Virus record (IMG/VR): IMGVR_UViG_2718218305_000006
Source: a virus
Taxonomy: Duplodnaviria > Heunggongvirae > Uroviricota > Caudoviricetes
Length of the DNA: 64,000 nt
Strand: one strand, 5' to 3'
Each line of letters begins with the position of its first letter. Within the stretch, counting starts at the first letter, position 1. The position numbers are program-made. Shown here piece after piece: positions 21,001-27,000 of the stretch.

Positions 21001-24000
21001 ACGACGGGCCCACAACGCCTGCTCCAGCGCATCCAGCACGAATGTCGTTTCCATAGACGATGAGACCCGCCACCCCACGATGTATCCGGCAAACACATCA
21101 ATGATAAACGCCACATAGACGAAGCCCTGCCATGTGCTGACGTAAGTAAAATCAGCCACCCACAGCTGGTCAGGTCGTTCTGCCACGAACTGACGGTTTA
21201 CGCGGTCGCCTGCGGCAACGGCTTTCCGGCTGATGGTCGTACGGACCTTTTTACCCCGGAGAACACCGGCAAGTCCCATAACCGCCATGAGACGTGCCAC
21301 TGTACATCTGGCCACCCTGATTCCTTCCCGTAACAACTGACGCCAGACTTTACGCACACCGTACACCTGATGATTTTCATCGTATACGCGCTGTATCTCT
21401 CTCTTCAGCCAGTCGTCGTGCTGCGCACGGGCACTGCGTTTATCCGGATGATGTCGCTGTTGCTGACAATGGTAATACGTTGACGGGGCAATATGCAGTT
21501 CGCTGCATACCGGTCCGACCCCGTACTGCTCACGCAGCTTATCCAGCAGTGGCATCATTTTTTCCAGAGGCGGTCGAACTCCGCCTTCGCAAAATAAGCG
21601 GAAGCCTGGCGAAGGATATCGTTACTGCGGCGCAGTTCACGATTTTCACGTTCCAGCTCTTTCAGACGCTGACGTTCAGCGCTGGTGAGCCCACCATCAC
21701 CGCCCCCGGTATCCCGCTCATGCTGGCGAACCCAGACACGCAGAGTCTCCGGCGTACAGCCAATCTTTGGGGCAATGGAACAAATTGCCGCCCACTGTGA
21801 GTCATATTCATCCTGACTTTCCAGAACCATACGAATCGCCCGCTGACGGACTTCGGGGGAAAAACGAGTATTTTTAGTCATCCTGTTTACCTCTTTCTCA
21901 GGGAGTTTAGTCTCCAGGATTTCCGGGGCGGTTCAATAAGGTCATCCGGTATCAGGAAGAGTGCGACGATGTTCTTTACGAGTACTGGACGAAGGGTTTT
22001 GTCGTTAATCCCCGTAAAATGAGCGTGATGGAAGAACTCAACCAGGCTTGTGCTGACATGAAACGGGATAAAAACATTGCCAGTGTGTTTGCTACCGGGC
22101 TGAATGAGTGGAAACAGGTTAAAGCCGCGCATGTATCAAAAATCCGTACGCTGGTAAATGAAGCGAATATGCTGATTGATTTTGTCCTGGCTGATACAGG
22201 CAAAGGGAAAATAACAAAGGCGGATTGATGGGGTGGCTAATGATATCAGATAAACTCATAACGCTGGTGAAGAGCCTCTGTGTACTTGTCGGCATTTCAT
22301 TTTTAGTCATGCTGGTTGCCATTTTCTTTTCCACCGCCTGGCGAGTCCTGACGTTATCGGGACTGGTGGGGTGAAAGAGAGATGAACCGTGTTCTGTGTG
22401 TGGTGATTATTGTCCTGGCGGTTGGCTATGGTGCGCTGTGGCTGGCAACAAACCATTACCGTGACAACGCGCTCACCTACAAAGCGCAGCGCGATAAAAA
22501 AGCCAGAGAGCTGGAACAGGCGAATGCCACCATTACTGACATGCAGGTGCGCCAGCGTGATGTTGCTGCGCTCGATGCAAAATACTCGAGGGAGTTAGCC
22601 GATGCGAGAGCTGAAAATGAAACTCTGCGTGCTGATGTTGCCGCTGGTCGTAAGCGCCTGCGGATCAACGCCACCTGCTCCGGTACCGTGCGTGAAGCCA
22701 CCGGCACCTCCGGCGTGGATAATGCAACCGGCCCCCGACTGGCAGACACCGCTGAACGGGATTATTTCATCCTCAGAGAACGGTTGATGACAATGCAGAA
22801 GCAGCTGGAAGGGGCACAGGACTATATCCGCACTCAGTGCCTGAACTAAGTTTTGCTGATGCGCCGTATCGTCGCCGTATTCCTGCATTAACAGAGACCG
22901 CAGCCCGACAGGGAGACTCCTCTGCGAGAGTGTGCGGGGATAATCAAAAACGATACACACCGGGGTTTACCGCGTAAACGGAGCGCGGCGTTCTCCCCTC
23001 ATGGTCGCCCGTCCGGTGCGATGGTGGAAGAAACTGGAATCTGTTCAATAAAAAAACTGCCGTGTTGGAGTCACAGCAGTAATGTACTGATTGGGTAGAA
23101 GATTATTATTGTTATGCTTTATTTTTATTCTATATGGCTGATTATTTCAATTCGGAATTAATACAGCTAATGTCTGTGAGTTTTTATAAATTCAGCAATA
23201 TAAAGAAATAGTTATATGAACAGCCATCGCAGAGCATACTGTGTATCATTCTTTTTTATAGTCAACTGACGGGCATATTTTATGTCTGCTGCCAGCTCCC
23301 GGCGGCAAGATTCAATGACCCACGCAGAAAAATTTTCTGAACCTTTCTGGTCAAGAGCGATGTTAATTTGTTCAATCATCTGGTTTGGAAATCGGATGTT
23401 GCGGGTTGTTGTTCTGCGGGGCCGGTTTTTCGATGACATTTTCTTTCCTCTGGTGACAAGCTATATGGCGAGGATTTTACATGGCTGTGCTTCGTACGTT
23501 ACCGGGCAGAATCAAAACTCTGAACACCCGGCGGATAAATGTCCTGAGGGGGGAACAGCGTCGTGTCAGTGGCAGTGCCCGGGTTTCCCTCAAACGTCGT
23601 ATCTGGCGGAGGGATGCCGGACACTGTTGTCTCTGTAGACGCGTGGTTGACCTTTGTGACAGTGAACTCGATCACCGCATTGCACTTCAGTTCGGTGGTG
23701 GTAATGAGGAGACGAACCTCTGGACCCTCTGTACTGAATGCCATCGCCAGAAGTCAGCGAGTGAAGCGGCGAGTGGTATGCCTGATCCGACGTTGCCTGA
23801 GCTTCCTGATGGCACGCTCAGGGCCGACGGAATCACTGGCCTGTGACCAGACCCGGGGGGGATCATCCGGCGAAAAAAAACGATCGCCCTGGACACCGCG
23901 CCCCCTCTCACGCAGAGAAAAAATTCCCGTTTCAGGGCAGTTAACATGTTAACTGGCTGCCCGGGCATTTTTGCGGTTTTTATCTTTATTATTCAGTTTG

Positions 24001-27000
24001 TTGTGCGGAAAAAATGTTAACAGGCTTTTTCAGCAAATGTTAACCAGGCAGCAGTTAACATTTGCGGCATGAGACGCCGGGAAAAATGGGCTGAACCATA
24101 CCCGGCTGAGTGCGTTCTGGACCCGGGAGGAGGCTGTGCTGACAACGCAAAAACGAAAATTTGCGCTGGCGCTCATGTCCGGGAAAAACAAAACAGCGTC
24201 AGCCCTTGCCGCCGGTTATTCGGCGAAGACAGCCAGGGTTAAAGGCTCGCAGCTGGCAAAAGATCCGGAGGTGCTTGCGTTTATAGCCCGTAAACAGTGC
24301 GAGACGGTGGAGGTGGATGAGGTTCCTGTTTACCGGCAGAAAAAATCAGAGCCGGAGGATAAACCCCGTCGCCGTGAGGCGGCTGCAATACCACAGCCGG
24401 ACGAAACAAATCCGGAGATGCCACCGCCCGTGGTGATATCTCCTGGTATTGAGTATATGGAGGACGGTCTTCCCGATCCGGTGAAAGCGATGGGGCGTCT
24501 TCTGGTGGAGAACATTAATACCGACCCCAGGCTGGCGCTGGATGCGGCTTATAAGCTGGCGCAGTTCACGCACCACAAAAAAGGGGATGCCGGTAAAAAA
24601 TCGGCAAAAGGTGACGCGGCGAAAAAAGCGGCTAACCGTTTTGCGGTGCCACCACCACCCCGCCTGGTGGTGAATAATGATAATGAGGGCAACGGATGAT
24701 ACCTGTGTGGAGCACGGCCTGCCCGGACTGGGCAGAGCGCCTGAAAAAGGGGCTGTCGATTATTCCGGCTCCGATTTATCCGGAGCAGGCCGCACATGCC
24801 CTGGCGATTTTTAAACAACTGCGGATTGTGGATGCACCGGGCAGCCCGACGTTCGGGGAGTCCTGCGCACAGTGGGTGTTTGACCTGGTGGCGGCCCTGT
24901 TTGGCTCCTACGATGCGCAGACCGGTGTACGCCATATCAAGGAAGTTTTTATCCTTATCCCCAAGAAAAACAGCAAGTCCACGCTGGCTGCCGGGATCAT
25001 GATGACGGCGCTGTTACTGAACTGGCGGCAGGCGGCGGGCTACACCATTCTGGCCCCGACCGTGGAGGTGGCGGCTAACGCCTTCAACCCTGCCAGGGAT
25101 ATGGTACGACGGGACGATGATCTGGATGACCTCTGTCAGGTGCAGACACATATCCGGACCATCACCCACAGGGTGACGGACACCACCCTGAAGGTGGTGG
25201 CTGCCGATCCGAATACGGTATCCGGTATCAAGTCCGTGGGGACGCTGATTGATGAACTGTGGTTATTTGGCAAGCAGTACAAAGCGGAGGACATGTTACG
25301 TGAAGCCATAGGCGGCCTTGCCTCCCGCCCGGAAGGGTTTGTGGTGTATACGACCACCCAGTCGAATGAGCCGCCAGCCGGGGTGTTCAGACAGAAACTG
25401 CAGTACGCCCGGGATGTCCGTGACGGCAAAATTCATGATCCGCACTTTCTGCCGGTGATTTTTGAGCATCCTCCTGAAATGGTGGAAAGCGGGGCTCACC
25501 TGCTGATGGAAAACCTCGCCATGGTTAACCCGAATCTCGGTTATTCGGTGGATGAGGCTTTTCTGTACCGGGAGTACCGTAAAGCCCGGGAGGCTGGTGA
25601 GGAAGCATTTCGTGGCTTCATGTCAAAACATGCCAATGTGGAAATTGGTCTTGCCCTGCGTTCTGACCGCTGGGCGGGTGCGGATTTCTGGGAGCAGCAG
25701 GGCAGGCGCGTCAGCCTGGACGATATCCTGCAGCGCGCTGATGTGGTGACGGTGGGGATTGACGGCGGGGGCCTGGATGATCTGCTGGGAATGTACGTGA
25801 CTGGCCGTGACAGGGAAACCCGCGAATGGCTGGGCTGGGGCCATGCCTGGGCGCATGAAACCGCGGTGGTCCGACGGAAGAGCGAGGCGTCCCGGTTTCA
25901 GGATCTTGTTGCCTGTGGAGATATGACCATTGTCCGGCGTGTCGGGGATGACACGGCGGAAGTGGCGGAATATGTGCGTCGCATTCATGAGGCTGAGTTA
26001 CTGGACCATATCGGTATTGACCCGTCAGGGGTGGGGCAGATTCTGGATTCACTGGCGGAAGCCGGGATCCCCGACGGAATTGTGGTGGGGATAAGCCAGG
26101 GCTGGAAACTGGGCGGGGCCATTAAAACCACCGAGCGCAAACTGGCTGAAGGGGTGCTGGTGCATGGTGACCAGCCCCTGATGGCCTGGTGTGTCGGCAA
26201 TGCCCGGGTGGAGCCTAAAGGTAACGCCATTCTTATCACCAAACAGGCCAGTGGACGGGGAAAAATTGACCCGCTGATGGCGCTGTTCAATGCGGTCTCC
26301 CTGATGTCCCTTAACCCGGAACCGAAAAAGAAAGAATATGCGGTTTTTTTCATATAACCCTGTTCACACTGTAACCATCATGAACCGCTGCGGCGGTTTT
26401 TTTATTTTCAGGAGGCTGATGTGACTCTTAAACGGGCCTGTTCCCTGCTGACGGTGAAATCCTTCAGTGAGGATGAACGGGTGATCACCGGGATTGCGTC
26501 AACGCCTTCTCCGGATCGGGATGGTGACATCCTGGAGCCGGAGGGCGCGGAGTTTGGCAGTGCGATCCCGTTTCTCTGGCAGCATGACCATTCCCGCCCG
26601 GTGGGGCAGTGTACGGTGCGCCGGGTCAGCGAAGGGCTGGAAATCACGGCAACACTGGTGAAGCCCGTACCGGATATGCCGTCGCAACTGGCTGCCCGGC
26701 TGGATGAGGTCTGGGCGGCCATTAAGACCGGGCTGGTCAGGGGGCTGTCCGTGGGCTTCCGTCCCCATGAATACACCTTTCTGGACGGAGGCGGACTGCA
26801 TTTTCTGCGCTGGGAACTGATGGAGGTGTCTGCCGTCACCGTGCCCGCGAATGCGGAATGCACCATCCGGACCATTAAATCTTACGACCGCCCGTTTTCT
26901 GCCGCGTCCGGCAACCGGAAACCGGTGGTGAAAATCGCATCTTCTGCCGGCGCTGCGGCACAGTCAACAACCGTTTTTCATAAGGAAAAGACCATAATGA

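What the first reader, a model, noticed from the sequence alone, without database searches (positions are those of the whole stretch)
23938..24064. ATGTTAAC repeat cluster between HNH and terminase genes
Four copies of ATGTTAAC/GTTAACAT, including the 14-bp palindrome GTTAACATGTTAAC, lie 70-200 bp upstream of the terminase small subunit gene. HNH-dependent cos phages carry terminase-binding repeats near cos, so this is a candidate cosB-like or regulatory element.
Basis: partly seen in the sequence, partly recalled or inferred. Interest (0 to 1): 0.4.

Follow-up and report, generated by a model that had tools for sequence, protein, structure and literature searches.

The report
Small-terminase recognition repeats beside phage cos
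The ATGTTAAC repeats lie just inside the left end of this E. coli prophage's packaged genome and are very probably the sites where the small terminase recognises phage DNA for packaging, an expected kind of element that had not been described for this common family of EHEC prophages.

Summary
Five exact ATGTTAAC/GTTAACAT 8-mers, two of them forming the perfect 18-bp palindrome at 23938-23955, lie in 23940-24061, which is 75-196 bp upstream of the terS GTG start at 24136.

In a phage with a ~96% identical cos region (Lys8385Vzw), published PhageTerm analysis maps a 10-nt 3' cohesive end. Its homologue here is CGCGCCCCCT at 23897-23906. The repeats therefore occupy +32 to +155 of the left genome end, between the cut site and terS, where lambda has cosB.

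- **Conservation.** Across four diverged lineages the motif columns are 98.7% identical and the other columns 59%.
- **Concerted change.** In a rarer lineage set all copies changed together to ATGTTTAY, and the 18-bp palindrome was kept through four symmetric paired changes.
- **Which protein tracks the motif.** Only the TerS helix-turn-helix (positions 25, 32, 35) follows motif type. HNH, TerL and the neighbouring DUF3950 protein do not.
- **Satellites.** One satellite family carries cut site plus all five repeats as a ~215-bp cassette. Another keeps the cut site but has its own TerS and different repeats.
- **Origin.** In other genera a single copy overlaps the terS start codon, so the array probably arose by duplication of that region.

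Verdict: a cosB-like TerS recognition array and a new member of a known kind. TerS binding itself is inferred, not shown.

The parts
23481..23846 (+). HNH endonuclease gene, the probable packaging accessory nuclease
   Evidence: Pfam PF01844, E=5e-6. Annotated as HNH endonuclease in RefSeq relatives. It sits directly upstream of cos, terS and terL, as gp74 does in HK97.
23855..23861 (.). G7 run about 40 bp left of the cut site, conserved in all relatives; role unknown, and a cosQ-like role is only a guess
   Evidence: Alignments. A similar G run also lies next to the satellite cassette.
23897..23906 (+). cosN-equivalent: homologue of the 10-nt 3' cohesive end (CGCGCCCCCT)
   Evidence: PMC7946995 reports cos = CGCCCCCCCT with 3' ends for Lys8385Vzw. 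The record ends with that 10-mer and restarts at CTCACGCAG. The same 10-mer, or one with a single substitution, lies 49 bp before terS in relatives from other genera.
23907..23934 (+). Left genome end: invariant block CTCACGCAGAGAAAAAATTCCCGTTTCA, with an A-tract at +12 to +17
   Evidence: Largely invariant across six diverged lineages and the satellite copy; L176 differs at 5 positions near +6 to +10. HK97 TerS binds +15 to +29, a stretch that includes an A-tract (PMC11331095), so this block is an additional candidate contact.
23938..23955 (.). Site pair R1/R2: perfect 18-bp palindrome holding two inverted ATGTTAAC half-sites, at +32 to +49 from the cut
   Evidence: It remains a perfect 18-bp palindrome (TTATAAACATGTTTATAA) in lineage L091 through four symmetric paired changes. 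In other genera the homologous site overlaps the terS start codon.
23956..24010 (.). T-rich spacer holding the conserved element ATTCA-N5-TTR (23991-24003); a possible bend or accessory-factor site
   Evidence: ATTCA and GTT are conserved in all six lineages while their surroundings diverge. No IHF consensus match at one mismatch or fewer lies in 23900-24140.
24011..24021 (+). Site R3: AAAATGTTAAC
   Evidence: The core is invariant in 84 close relatives and changes to ATGTTTAT in the other lineage type.
24033..24065 (.). Site pair R4/R5: inverted repeat GCAAATGTTAAC-N9-GTTAACATTTGC, with a conserved GGCAGC between the arms
   Evidence: Both arms change together to ATGTTTAC / GTAAACAT in L091, L173 and L186. 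Similarity to the satellite copy ends a few bases after this site.
24126..24133 (+). Shine-Dalgarno sequence of terS (GGAGGAGG)
   Evidence: Read directly from the sequence.
24136..24699 (+). terS, the small terminase (Terminase_2 family); its N-terminal helix-turn-helix is the proposed reader of the repeats
   Evidence: Pfam PF03592, residues 2-57. The nearest solved structures are the SF6 small terminase DNA-binding domains 4zc3, 3zqq and 2cmp. The AlphaFold model gives pLDDT >90 for residues 1-55, with helices at 4-14, 19-25, 33-41 and 44-55.
24696..26357 (+). terL, the large terminase (ATPase plus nuclease)
   Evidence: Pfam PF03354 and PF20441.

Best explanation
The ATGTTAAC cluster is the cosB-like recognition array of an HNH-dependent packaging system that makes 3'-overhang cohesive ends. 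Terminase and the HNH nuclease cut concatemeric DNA at CGCGCCCCCT (23897-23906). Packaging then proceeds rightwards, so the repeats are the first DNA to enter the capsid. They occupy +32 to +155 of the left end, between the cut and terS. The small terminase is a Terminase_2-family protein whose relatives form rings with N-terminal helix-turn-helix domains. I propose that these domains bind the five 8-bp half-sites: an abutting inverted pair, a T-rich and probably bent 58-bp spacer, one single site, and a second inverted pair. This complex would mark the DNA as phage DNA and position TerL and HNH on the neighbouring cut site. Specificity lies in the pairing of the TerS N-terminal domain with the repeats, and the two are exchanged together as a cassette. 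What is shown: the position relative to a mapped end in a close relative, motif-specific purifying selection, concerted motif change that tracks only the TerS helix-turn-helix, and capture or replacement of the array by satellites. What is inferred: physical binding by TerS, DNA wrapping or bending, and a requirement for packaging initiation.
For: 1. Position. The Lys8385Vzw ends (PMC7946995; sequences) place the cut 31 bp left of the palindrome.

2. Selection. In four diverged ATGTTAAC-type lineages, motif columns are 98.7% identical and other columns 59.1%. None of 20,000 random block placements reached that value. The cores are invariant in 84 close relatives, with one exception, while the flanks and the overhang vary.

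3. Concerted change. In L091, L173-175 and L186 every copy is ATGTTTAT or ATGTTTAC, and the 18-bp palindrome is kept through four symmetric paired changes. L187/188 has a TerS only 45% identical to the window's, yet it expanded independently to a palindrome plus three ATGTTTAT copies and one near-copy (TTGTTTAT).

4. TerS positions 25, 32 and 35 separate all four ATGTTAAC lineages (A/T, T, V) from all three ATGTTTAY lineages compared (E/K, S, C). These positions are the end of helix 2, the N-cap of helix 3 and the third residue of helix 3. Across the two motif types HNH is 98% identical (L007 against L091), TerL is 99% identical (window against L091), and the DUF3950 proteins are nearly identical.

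5. Satellites. A PICI (phage-inducible chromosomal island) carries cut site plus all five repeats at the same spacing, although the spacers have diverged. A sister island lacks exactly this ~215-bp cassette. A second PICI type has no TerL or HNH. It keeps the cut-site core, encodes its own Terminase_2 TerS, and has different repeats (AAAGTTACAC x2) at the same place.

6. Nucleotide-level constraint in other genera. Codons 1-3 of terS are invariantly ATG TTA ACA in 18 of 21 relatives (20 loci from other genera plus FSL SP-016), while later codons vary synonymously. Here terS has been separated from the site and begins GTG CTG ACA.
Against: No binding or packaging experiment exists for this family. 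The end mapping is a read-based PhageTerm inference in a relative, not in this prophage. The covariation rests on few independent lineages (about four against four) within linked DNA. The second PICI's TerS has a helix 3 almost identical to the window's (KTARVKGW against KTARVKGS) but different repeats, so positions 32 and 35 cannot be the whole recognition code. By analogy with HK97 (site at +15 to +29), the invariant A-tract block could be the primary TerS site and the repeats accessory. Most relatives in other genera manage with one palindromic site, so the three extra copies may only enhance function. Spacings between sites (8, 68, 23 and 15 bp) show no simple helical phasing.
Confidence: 0.77

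Rival explanations
1. The repeats are operators for a regulatory DNA-binding protein that controls terS/terL expression or a leftward transcript. Candidates are the divergently encoded YlcI/YnfO (DUF3950, ribbon-helix-helix-like by my reading of its sequence) protein or a host factor.
For: Palindromic and repeated sites directly upstream of a gene are typical operators. In other genera the site overlaps the terS start codon and Shine-Dalgarno. A weak sigma-70-like match on the minus strand is built from two of the copies (24043 to 24014, 9 of 12 positions). A DUF3950 gene lies next to HNH.
Against: DUF3950 proteins are nearly identical in L007 (ATGTTAAC type) and L091 (ATGTTTAY type), and the gene is absent from L187 and FSL SP-016. 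A host factor cannot explain concerted motif switching between prophages of the same species. The PICI copy lies at the island end with no downstream island gene, and it travels together with the cut site. The region lies inside the long late operon of a lambdoid phage.
Confidence: 0.08
2. TerS does bind the repeats, but their main role is not packaging initiation. Instead they autoregulate terS, or they act at termination as a cosQ-like stalling signal, while the A-tract block at +10 to +28 is the true initiation site, as in HK97.
For: The minimal HK97 TerS site is +15 to +29 and includes an A-tract (PMC11331095). The equivalent block here is among the best-conserved stretches in every lineage and in both satellite types. 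The ancestral site overlaps the terS start codon.
Against: HK97 TerS belongs to a different family and recognises DNA through a different substructure. The A-tract block does not vary with TerS type, whereas the repeats do. The PICI that encodes its own TerS keeps a related A/T-rich block but replaces the repeats.
Confidence: 0.1
3. The palindromes act as RNA hairpins, either an intrinsic terminator or processing site after HNH or a translational structure for terS.
For: GGGCAG...CTGCCC flanks the palindrome and is followed by T-rich sequence. Copies 4 and 5 can form a 12-bp stem.
Against: No plus-strand terminator-like site was found. Fold z-scores are weak: -2.0, -1.5, -0.8 and -1.1. The GC clamp is not conserved in L091 or in the PICI. 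In L091 the stem would consist of A-U pairs only. The unpaired copy R3 changes in concert with the others, which no hairpin model explains. Rfam gives no hit.
Confidence: 0.03
4. The copies are functionless relics of duplications of the terS 5' end (ATG TTA AC = Met-Leu-Thr).
For: ATGTTAAC is the terS start in 18 of 21 relatives from other genera. The copies share flanks such as ATGTTAAC(A/T)GGCT. Copy 4, ATGTTAACCAGGCAGCAG, resembles the ancestral ATGTTAACAGCGCAGAAG.
Against: Relics would decay at the rate of the spacers (59% identity), not stay at 98.7%. They would not switch in concert, re-expand independently, or be kept in a satellite cassette. Duplication is probably how the array arose, but it does not explain why the copies persist.
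Confidence: 0.02

Closest known systems
Bacteriophage lambda cosB (R3-I1-R2-R1 elements bound by gpNu1)
   Same: Both are arrays of repeated short elements on the terS-proximal side of the nick site, between the nick site and the small-terminase gene. In both, a bendable segment separates the first element from the others. In both, specificity is exchanged together with the TerS DNA-binding domain, as with lambda and phage 21 specificity (my background knowledge; the cosB summary is from PMC6739421). Both types of cos are exploited by PICIs.
   Different: Nu1 is a winged-helix protein of another family (PF07471), whereas this TerS is Terminase_2. Lambda makes a 12-nt 5' overhang without an HNH partner; here the overhang is 10 nt, 3', with an adjacent HNH gene. 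The elements here are 8-bp cores arranged as two inverted pairs plus a single site, not three 16-bp R sites. No IHF consensus was found.
HK97 cos and gp1 small-terminase site (+15 to +29), with the gp74 HNH nuclease
   Same: Same gene order (HNH, cos, terS, terL), a TerL carrying the TerL_ATPase (PF03354) and TerL_nuclease (PF20441) domains, and a 10-nt 3' overhang. The TerS site lies just inside the left end. An A-tract sits at a comparable offset (PMC11331095).
   Different: HK97 has one 15-bp site, read as DNA passes through the ring channel by a substructure built from N- and C-terminal arms. Here there are five dispersed copies of a motif, and a canonical N-terminal helix-turn-helix tracks motif type. 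The two TerS proteins are unrelated at the Pfam level.
SPP1 / SF6 pac site (pacL and pacR boxes bound by G1P)
   Same: Same TerS family: the best PDB matches are SF6 small terminase structures 4zc3, 3zqq and 2cmp. In both systems several short boxes are bound by the N-terminal helix-turn-helix of a ring oligomer, with intrinsically bent DNA between boxes (my background knowledge).
   Different: SPP1 and SF6 are headful (pac) packagers with no defined cohesive ends and no HNH partner. The boxes flank the cut on both sides. Here all copies lie on one side of a precise cos cut, although relatives in other genera do have one half-site to the left of the cut.
cos-type satellites: SaPIbov5 with phi12/phiSLT, and EcCICFT073 with lambda/phi80 (Rpp)
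   Same: Satellites carry a copy of the helper's cos in order to be packaged. EcCICFT073 keeps the helper cosN but has a different cosB (PMC6739421 and PMC6092414). The islands found here show both strategies for this cos family.
   Different: The SY033-type island copies cosN and cosB of the HNH-type phage unchanged and also carries a lambda-type cos. The P0063-type island uses its own full TerS rather than an Rpp adaptor. None of these islands has been tested experimentally.

Membership tests
cosB-type small-terminase recognition subsite of a cos site | Lies next to the terminase nick site, on the side packaged first (the terS-proximal side) | tested here: met
   The cut-site homologue is at 23897-23906, by alignment to the PhageTerm-oriented ends of Lys8385Vzw. 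The repeats lie at +32 to +155, before terS at +230.
cosB-type small-terminase recognition subsite of a cos site | Made of repeated sequence elements conserved above background | tested here: met
   Five exact 8-mers. Identity is 98.7% in motif columns and 59.1% elsewhere, permutation p <= 5e-5.
cosB-type small-terminase recognition subsite of a cos site | Specificity co-varies with the small terminase DNA-binding domain and not with TerL | tested here: met
   ATGTTAAC goes with T32/V35 and ATGTTTAY with S32/C35, in four against three lineages. TerL is 99% and HNH 98% identical across the two types. The number of lineages is small.
cosB-type small-terminase recognition subsite of a cos site | Physically bound by the small terminase | not testable with these tools
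   Requires EMSA, footprinting or ChIP.
cosB-type small-terminase recognition subsite of a cos site | Required for packaging initiation or cos cleavage | not testable with these tools
   Requires cos-plasmid transduction or in vitro cleavage assays. Retention of the whole array in a satellite cassette is indirect support only.
Lambda-type cosB specifically | IHF site (I1) between R elements, and a Nu1-family TerS | tested here: not met
   No WATCAANNNNTTR match at one mismatch or fewer in 23900-24140. TerS is PF03592, not PF07471.
HNH-dependent, HK97-like 3'-cos packaging module | HNH gene adjacent to terS and terL, with an HK97-type TerL | tested here: met
   PF01844 HNH at 23481-23846. TerL carries PF03354 and PF20441. 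A prohead protease-capsid fusion lies downstream.
HNH-dependent, HK97-like 3'-cos packaging module | 10-nt 3'-protruding cohesive ends at a fixed site | tested here: inconclusive
   Reported for the close relative Lys8385Vzw by PhageTerm (PMC7946995). Not measured for this prophage, whose 10-mer differs at one position.
Intrinsic (rho-independent) terminator | GC-rich stem-loop immediately followed by a U run, conserved among relatives | tested here: not met
   No plus-strand hit. Folds are weak and not conserved.

The most novel reading that the evidence does not exclude
The TerS N-terminal domain and the repeat array form a naturally switching specificity cassette: ATGTTAAC with T32/V35 against ATGTTTAY with S32/C35. 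This would give a simple, testable recognition code for Terminase_2-type small terminases. Satellites exploit the modularity. In particular, one E. coli PICI family carries two cos sites of different mechanistic classes: a lambda-type site (5' overhang, with a Nu1-like gene) and this HNH-type site (3' overhang). That arrangement would let the island be packaged by two unrelated families of helper phage, including Stx-converting phages.
Probability: 0.4. Interest if true: 0.65.

Novelty: new member of a known kind. Interest (0 to 1): 0.5.

Why it matters
This packaging module (HNH, cos, Terminase_2 terS, terL) is present in about 1,250 of 5,426 complete E. coli genomes, often in several copies. 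It is also found in many Stx1, Stx2a and Stx2c converting phages. Knowing which short DNA segment is sufficient for recognition has several uses:

- It predicts what these phages can mobilise, including satellites, cos-bearing plasmids and neighbouring DNA.
- It explains which prophages and satellites compete for the same terminase.
- It offers a compact natural cos cassette of about 200 bp for transduction tools.

How ring-shaped Terminase_2 small terminases achieve sequence specificity is still poorly understood. The natural ATGTTAAC/ATGTTTAY switch, paired with two or three helix-turn-helix substitutions, is a ready-made experiment on that question.

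Tried and rejected
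- **IHF site in the spacer.** No consensus match at one mismatch or fewer. Only a conserved ATTCA-N5-TTR element is present, and it misses the consensus at two positions.
- **Terminator or RNA hairpin.** No terminator-like site, weak and non-conserved folds, and no Rfam hit.
- **Small ORF 23946-24020 (MLTGCPGIFAVFIFIIQFVVRKKC).** It is not conserved: the frame stops after 4-5 codons in L176 and in the PICI.
- **DUF3950/YlcI-YnfO, HNH or TerL as the protein that reads the motif.** Their sequences do not follow motif type.
- **Genome-contig scan with the single TerS protein.** It found nothing; a scan with an alignment worked.
- **IMG/VR scans for the AT-rich palindrome ATAAACATGTTTAT.** These returned only chance hits.
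- **Burkholderia phage records that start about 25 bp before a related terS.** Their starts share no similarity with this cos and gave no information on the ends.
- **Plasmid hits.** These appear to be prophage-bearing or very large records (90 kb to 1.4 Mb), not natural cosmids; I did not inspect their context.
- **Literature.** No paper in the searchable library contains the 14-bp palindrome. SfI and SfV have a different cos, TGCCCGCCCC.

Full report
**What is in the sequence.** The window region reads HNH gene (23481-23846), a 289-bp gap, terS (24136-24699, GTG start, GGAGG Shine-Dalgarno at 24126-24130), then terL (24696-26357) and a prohead protease-capsid fusion. The gap holds five exact copies of ATGTTAAC or its complement. 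Two of them overlap in a perfect 18-bp palindrome, CAGTTAACATGTTAACTG, at 23938-23955. Single copies lie at 24014 and 24037, and an inverted copy at 24054. That last copy forms a perfect 12-nt inverted repeat with the copy at 24037. The 8-mer occurs 8 times in 64 kb against 1.7 expected, and five of those lie within 122 bp. My Poisson estimate for four independent loci in one such stretch is about 2.5e-9 after correction for the number of stretches. At one mismatch there is no enrichment.

**What the locus is.** The region is 99.9% identical to Stx2-converting phage Stx2a_WGPS6. It is about 95-96% identical to phages 2851, 1717, BP-4795 and YYZ-2008 and to dozens of Stx1a, Stx2a and Stx2c phages. 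It occurs in 1,282 of 5,426 complete E. coli genomes, often several times per genome. TerS belongs to Pfam Terminase_2. Its nearest solved relatives are the SF6 small-terminase DNA-binding domains. An AlphaFold model gives a confident N-terminal four-helix domain, with helices at 4-14, 19-25, 33-41 and 44-55 and pLDDT above 90.

**Where the genome ends are.** Zhang et al. 2021 (PMC7946995) induced the related Stx1 phage Lys8385Vzw and sequenced the particles. [quoted passage not shown] The deposited record ends ...GGACACCGCCCCCCCT. It starts CTCACGCAGAGAAAAAATTCCCGTTTCAGGGCAGTTAACATGTTAACTGG.... Aligned to the window, the cohesive-end homologue is CGCGCCCCCT at 23897-23906 and the left genome end begins at 23907. 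The repeats therefore occupy +32 to +155 of the left end, between the cut and terS. This is the position of cosB in lambda, and it is on the same side as the TerS site of HK97 (+15 to +29; PMC11331095).

**Conservation.** In 84 close relatives (IMG/VR loci plus phage records) the five cores are invariant, with one exception in one locus. Adjacent bases and the overhang itself vary: CGCGCCCCCT, CGCCCCCCCT and CGCCCCCCGT all occur. I then collected more diverged lineages through TerS homologues. An alignment of six lineages shows islands of conservation. These are the cut site with the A-tract block, each motif copy, CTTTTT after R3, GGCAGC between R4 and R5, and an ATTCA-N5-TTR element in the T-rich spacer. 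Everything else has diverged. In the four ATGTTAAC-type lineages, motif columns are 98.7% identical pairwise and other columns 59.1%. None of 20,000 random placements of equal-sized blocks reached the observed value.

**Concerted change, and which protein follows it.** In the prophage of E. coli 2014C-3097 (L091) all five copies differ in the same way: ATGTTAAC has become ATGTTTAT or ATGTTTAC. The 18-bp palindrome has become TTATAAACATGTTTATAA, still perfect, through four symmetric pairs of substitutions.

- The same motif type appears in L173-175 and L186.
- It also appears in a much more distant lineage, L187/188, whose TerS is only 45% identical to the window's. There the array expanded independently, to a palindrome, three direct ATGTTTAT copies and one near-copy.
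- Comparing proteins across motif types, HNH is 98% identical between L007 (ATGTTAAC) and L091 (ATGTTTAY).
- The first 360 residues of TerL are 99% identical between the window and L091.
- The neighbouring DUF3950/YlcI-YnfO proteins are nearly identical between L007 and L091.
- Only the TerS N-terminal domain separates the types. Positions 25 (A/T against E/K), 32 (T against S) and 35 (V against C) separate the four ATGTTAAC lineages from the three ATGTTTAY lineages compared. These positions are the end of helix 2, the N-cap of helix 3 and the third residue of helix 3 of the helix-turn-helix.

A host factor cannot explain motif switching between prophages of one species. A hairpin model cannot explain why the unpaired copy R3 changes along with the others.

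**Satellites.** A phage-inducible chromosomal island lies between cspD/yljB and clpS in E. coli SY033. It encodes an integrase, a primase, a capsid-protein homologue, a decoration-protein homologue and a Nu1-like protein. At its end it carries an 80%-identical copy of window 23892-24063. The cut site, the A-tract block and all five repeats are kept at the same spacing, while the spacers have diverged. A sister island in an O145:H28 strain lacks exactly this ~215-bp segment, so the segment behaves as a discrete cassette whose right border falls just after the last repeat. At least 44 complete genomes hold the cassette-bearing island end.

A second island type (L183-185, L190) has an integrase, an AAA_25 replication protein, its own Terminase_2 TerS and a capsid homologue, but no TerL, HNH or portal. 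It keeps the cut-site core (GGACACCGCCCCCCGTCTCAT). Between that core and its terS it has different repeats, AAAGTTACAC twice, and no ATGTTAAC. This is the pattern expected if the cut site serves TerL and HNH and the repeats serve TerS.

**Origin of the array.** In relatives from Kluyvera, Atlantibacter, Erwinia, Serratia, Enterobacter, Kosakonia, Pantoea, Citrobacter and other genera, and in Salmonella phage FSL SP-016, terS starts only about 40 bp after the cut. Its start codon sits inside GT(A/T)AAC-AT-GTTAAC. The first three codons are ATG TTA ACA at the nucleotide level in 18 of 21 of these relatives, while later codons vary synonymously. That points to a constraint on the DNA beyond protein coding. 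Many of these relatives also have a third half-site, GTAAACAT, about 24 bp to the left of the cut. In the E. coli lineage about 182 bp has been inserted between the palindrome and terS. The old Shine-Dalgarno has decayed (GGAGGG to CAGGGC), and terS now starts GTG CTG ACA. The extra copies share flanks with the ancestral terS 5' end. The array most likely grew by duplication of the site that overlapped the start codon, after which the copies were kept by selection.

**Rivals.**
- An operator for another regulator is unlikely, for the reasons given above.
- A terminator or RNA structure is not supported. There is no terminator-like site on the plus strand, fold z-scores run from -0.8 to -2.0, the GC clamp is not conserved, and Rfam gives no hit.
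- No IHF consensus is present.
- The main open alternative is that the invariant A-tract block (+10 to +28) is the primary TerS contact, as in HK97, and the repeats are accessory. That block does not vary with TerS type, and HK97 TerS belongs to another family.
- The recognition code is also incomplete. The second island's TerS has nearly the same helix 3 as the window's but different repeats.

**Comparison with known systems and novelty.** Functionally this is a cosB: repeats next to the nick site that set packaging specificity together with the TerS DNA-binding domain. It is not a member of the lambda cosB/Nu1 family, because the TerS fold family is different, there is no IHF site, and the ends are 3' with an HNH partner. 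It shares gene order and end type with HK97 but has a different TerS and a multi-copy site. It shares the TerS family with SPP1 and SF6, but those are headful packagers. The library I could search holds no description of the motif, and the only end mapping for the family that I found is the PhageTerm result. I rate it a new member of a known kind. It is of moderate interest in its own right, and more so for the natural specificity switch and the satellite biology it exposes.

**Confidence.** I put about 0.77 on the repeats being small-terminase recognition sites used in packaging. The remainder is spread over an accessory or other role for TerS at these sites, another DNA-binding protein, RNA structure, and relics.

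Noticed in passing
L005 1208-1219 and L005 ~2999-3173 (E. coli SY033 island; also L008): One PICI carries two cos sites of different classes. The first is an exact lambda cosN, GGGCGGCGACCT, with lambda-like flanks, just upstream of a Nu1-family gene. The second, at the island end next to clpS, is the HNH-type cut site with all five ATGTTAAC repeats. A sister island (L092) lacks only the ~215-bp HNH-type cassette. This suggests one satellite can be packaged by two unrelated helper families. The PICI papers I read (PMC6739421, PMC6092414) describe two cos sites in EcCICFT073, but both are lambda-like.
   Followed up: partly
L183-L185 about 1090-1200; L190 3446-11944: A second PICI type encodes its own Terminase_2 small terminase (P0063, 46% identical to the window's). 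It keeps the phage cut-site core GGACACCGCCCCCCGTCTCAT but has different direct repeats, AAAGTTACAC twice, before its terS. It has no TerL, HNH or portal. It probably redirects the helper terminase to itself. The index lists this protein in 244 blocks of the contig collection.
   Followed up: partly
window 23897-23906 and homologous positions in L093-L172: The 10-nt cohesive-end sequence is polymorphic among otherwise near-identical prophages. CGCGCCCCCT, CGCCCCCCCT, CGCCCCCCGT and a 9-nt variant all occur. Co-resident prophages of this family would then have ends that cannot all anneal with one another.
   Followed up: no
window 23863-23878 and 23908-23923; G7 run 23855-23861: A direct repeat TCAnnnnnnGAAAAAA lies on both sides of the cut site, 45 bp apart. 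A conserved G7-G8 run lies about 40 bp to the left of the cut in all relatives, and a similar run lies next to the satellite cassette. These could be cosQ-like or TerL/HNH contacts; they were not tested.
   Followed up: no
window 20668-21881 (- strand): An IS3-family insertion sequence, with OrfA at 21555-21881 and OrfB at 20668-21558, sits within the lysis and late-gene region of the prophage, upstream of Rz (22382-22849). It may affect late transcription reaching the packaging genes.
   Followed up: no
window 23212-23439 (- strand): A YlcI/YnfO (DUF3950) gene is encoded divergently just before HNH. Its sequence (...NIRFPNQMIEQINIAL...FSAWVIE.CRR) looks ribbon-helix-helix-like to me. A distant homologue sits in the regulatory region of the SY033 PICI. 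Its function is unknown, and it does not track the repeat type.
   Followed up: partly
L004, L011-L027: -73 relative to the terS start: In relatives that have a single palindromic site, a further half-site GTAAACAT lies about 24 bp to the left of the cut. Sites therefore flank the cut on both sides there, which recalls SPP1 pacL/pacR. This left-hand copy is absent from the window (GAAAAAAAA instead).
   Followed up: no
L005 2190-2680: The SY033 island has a roughly 500-bp non-coding stretch with several long direct repeats, for example CGGCGCGGTAACTNGCTGA and TGAATAATCATTATGATTACGCAGATGATTAAGG. It lies between the island's last gene and the cos cassette and may be an origin or iteron region.
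   Followed up: no
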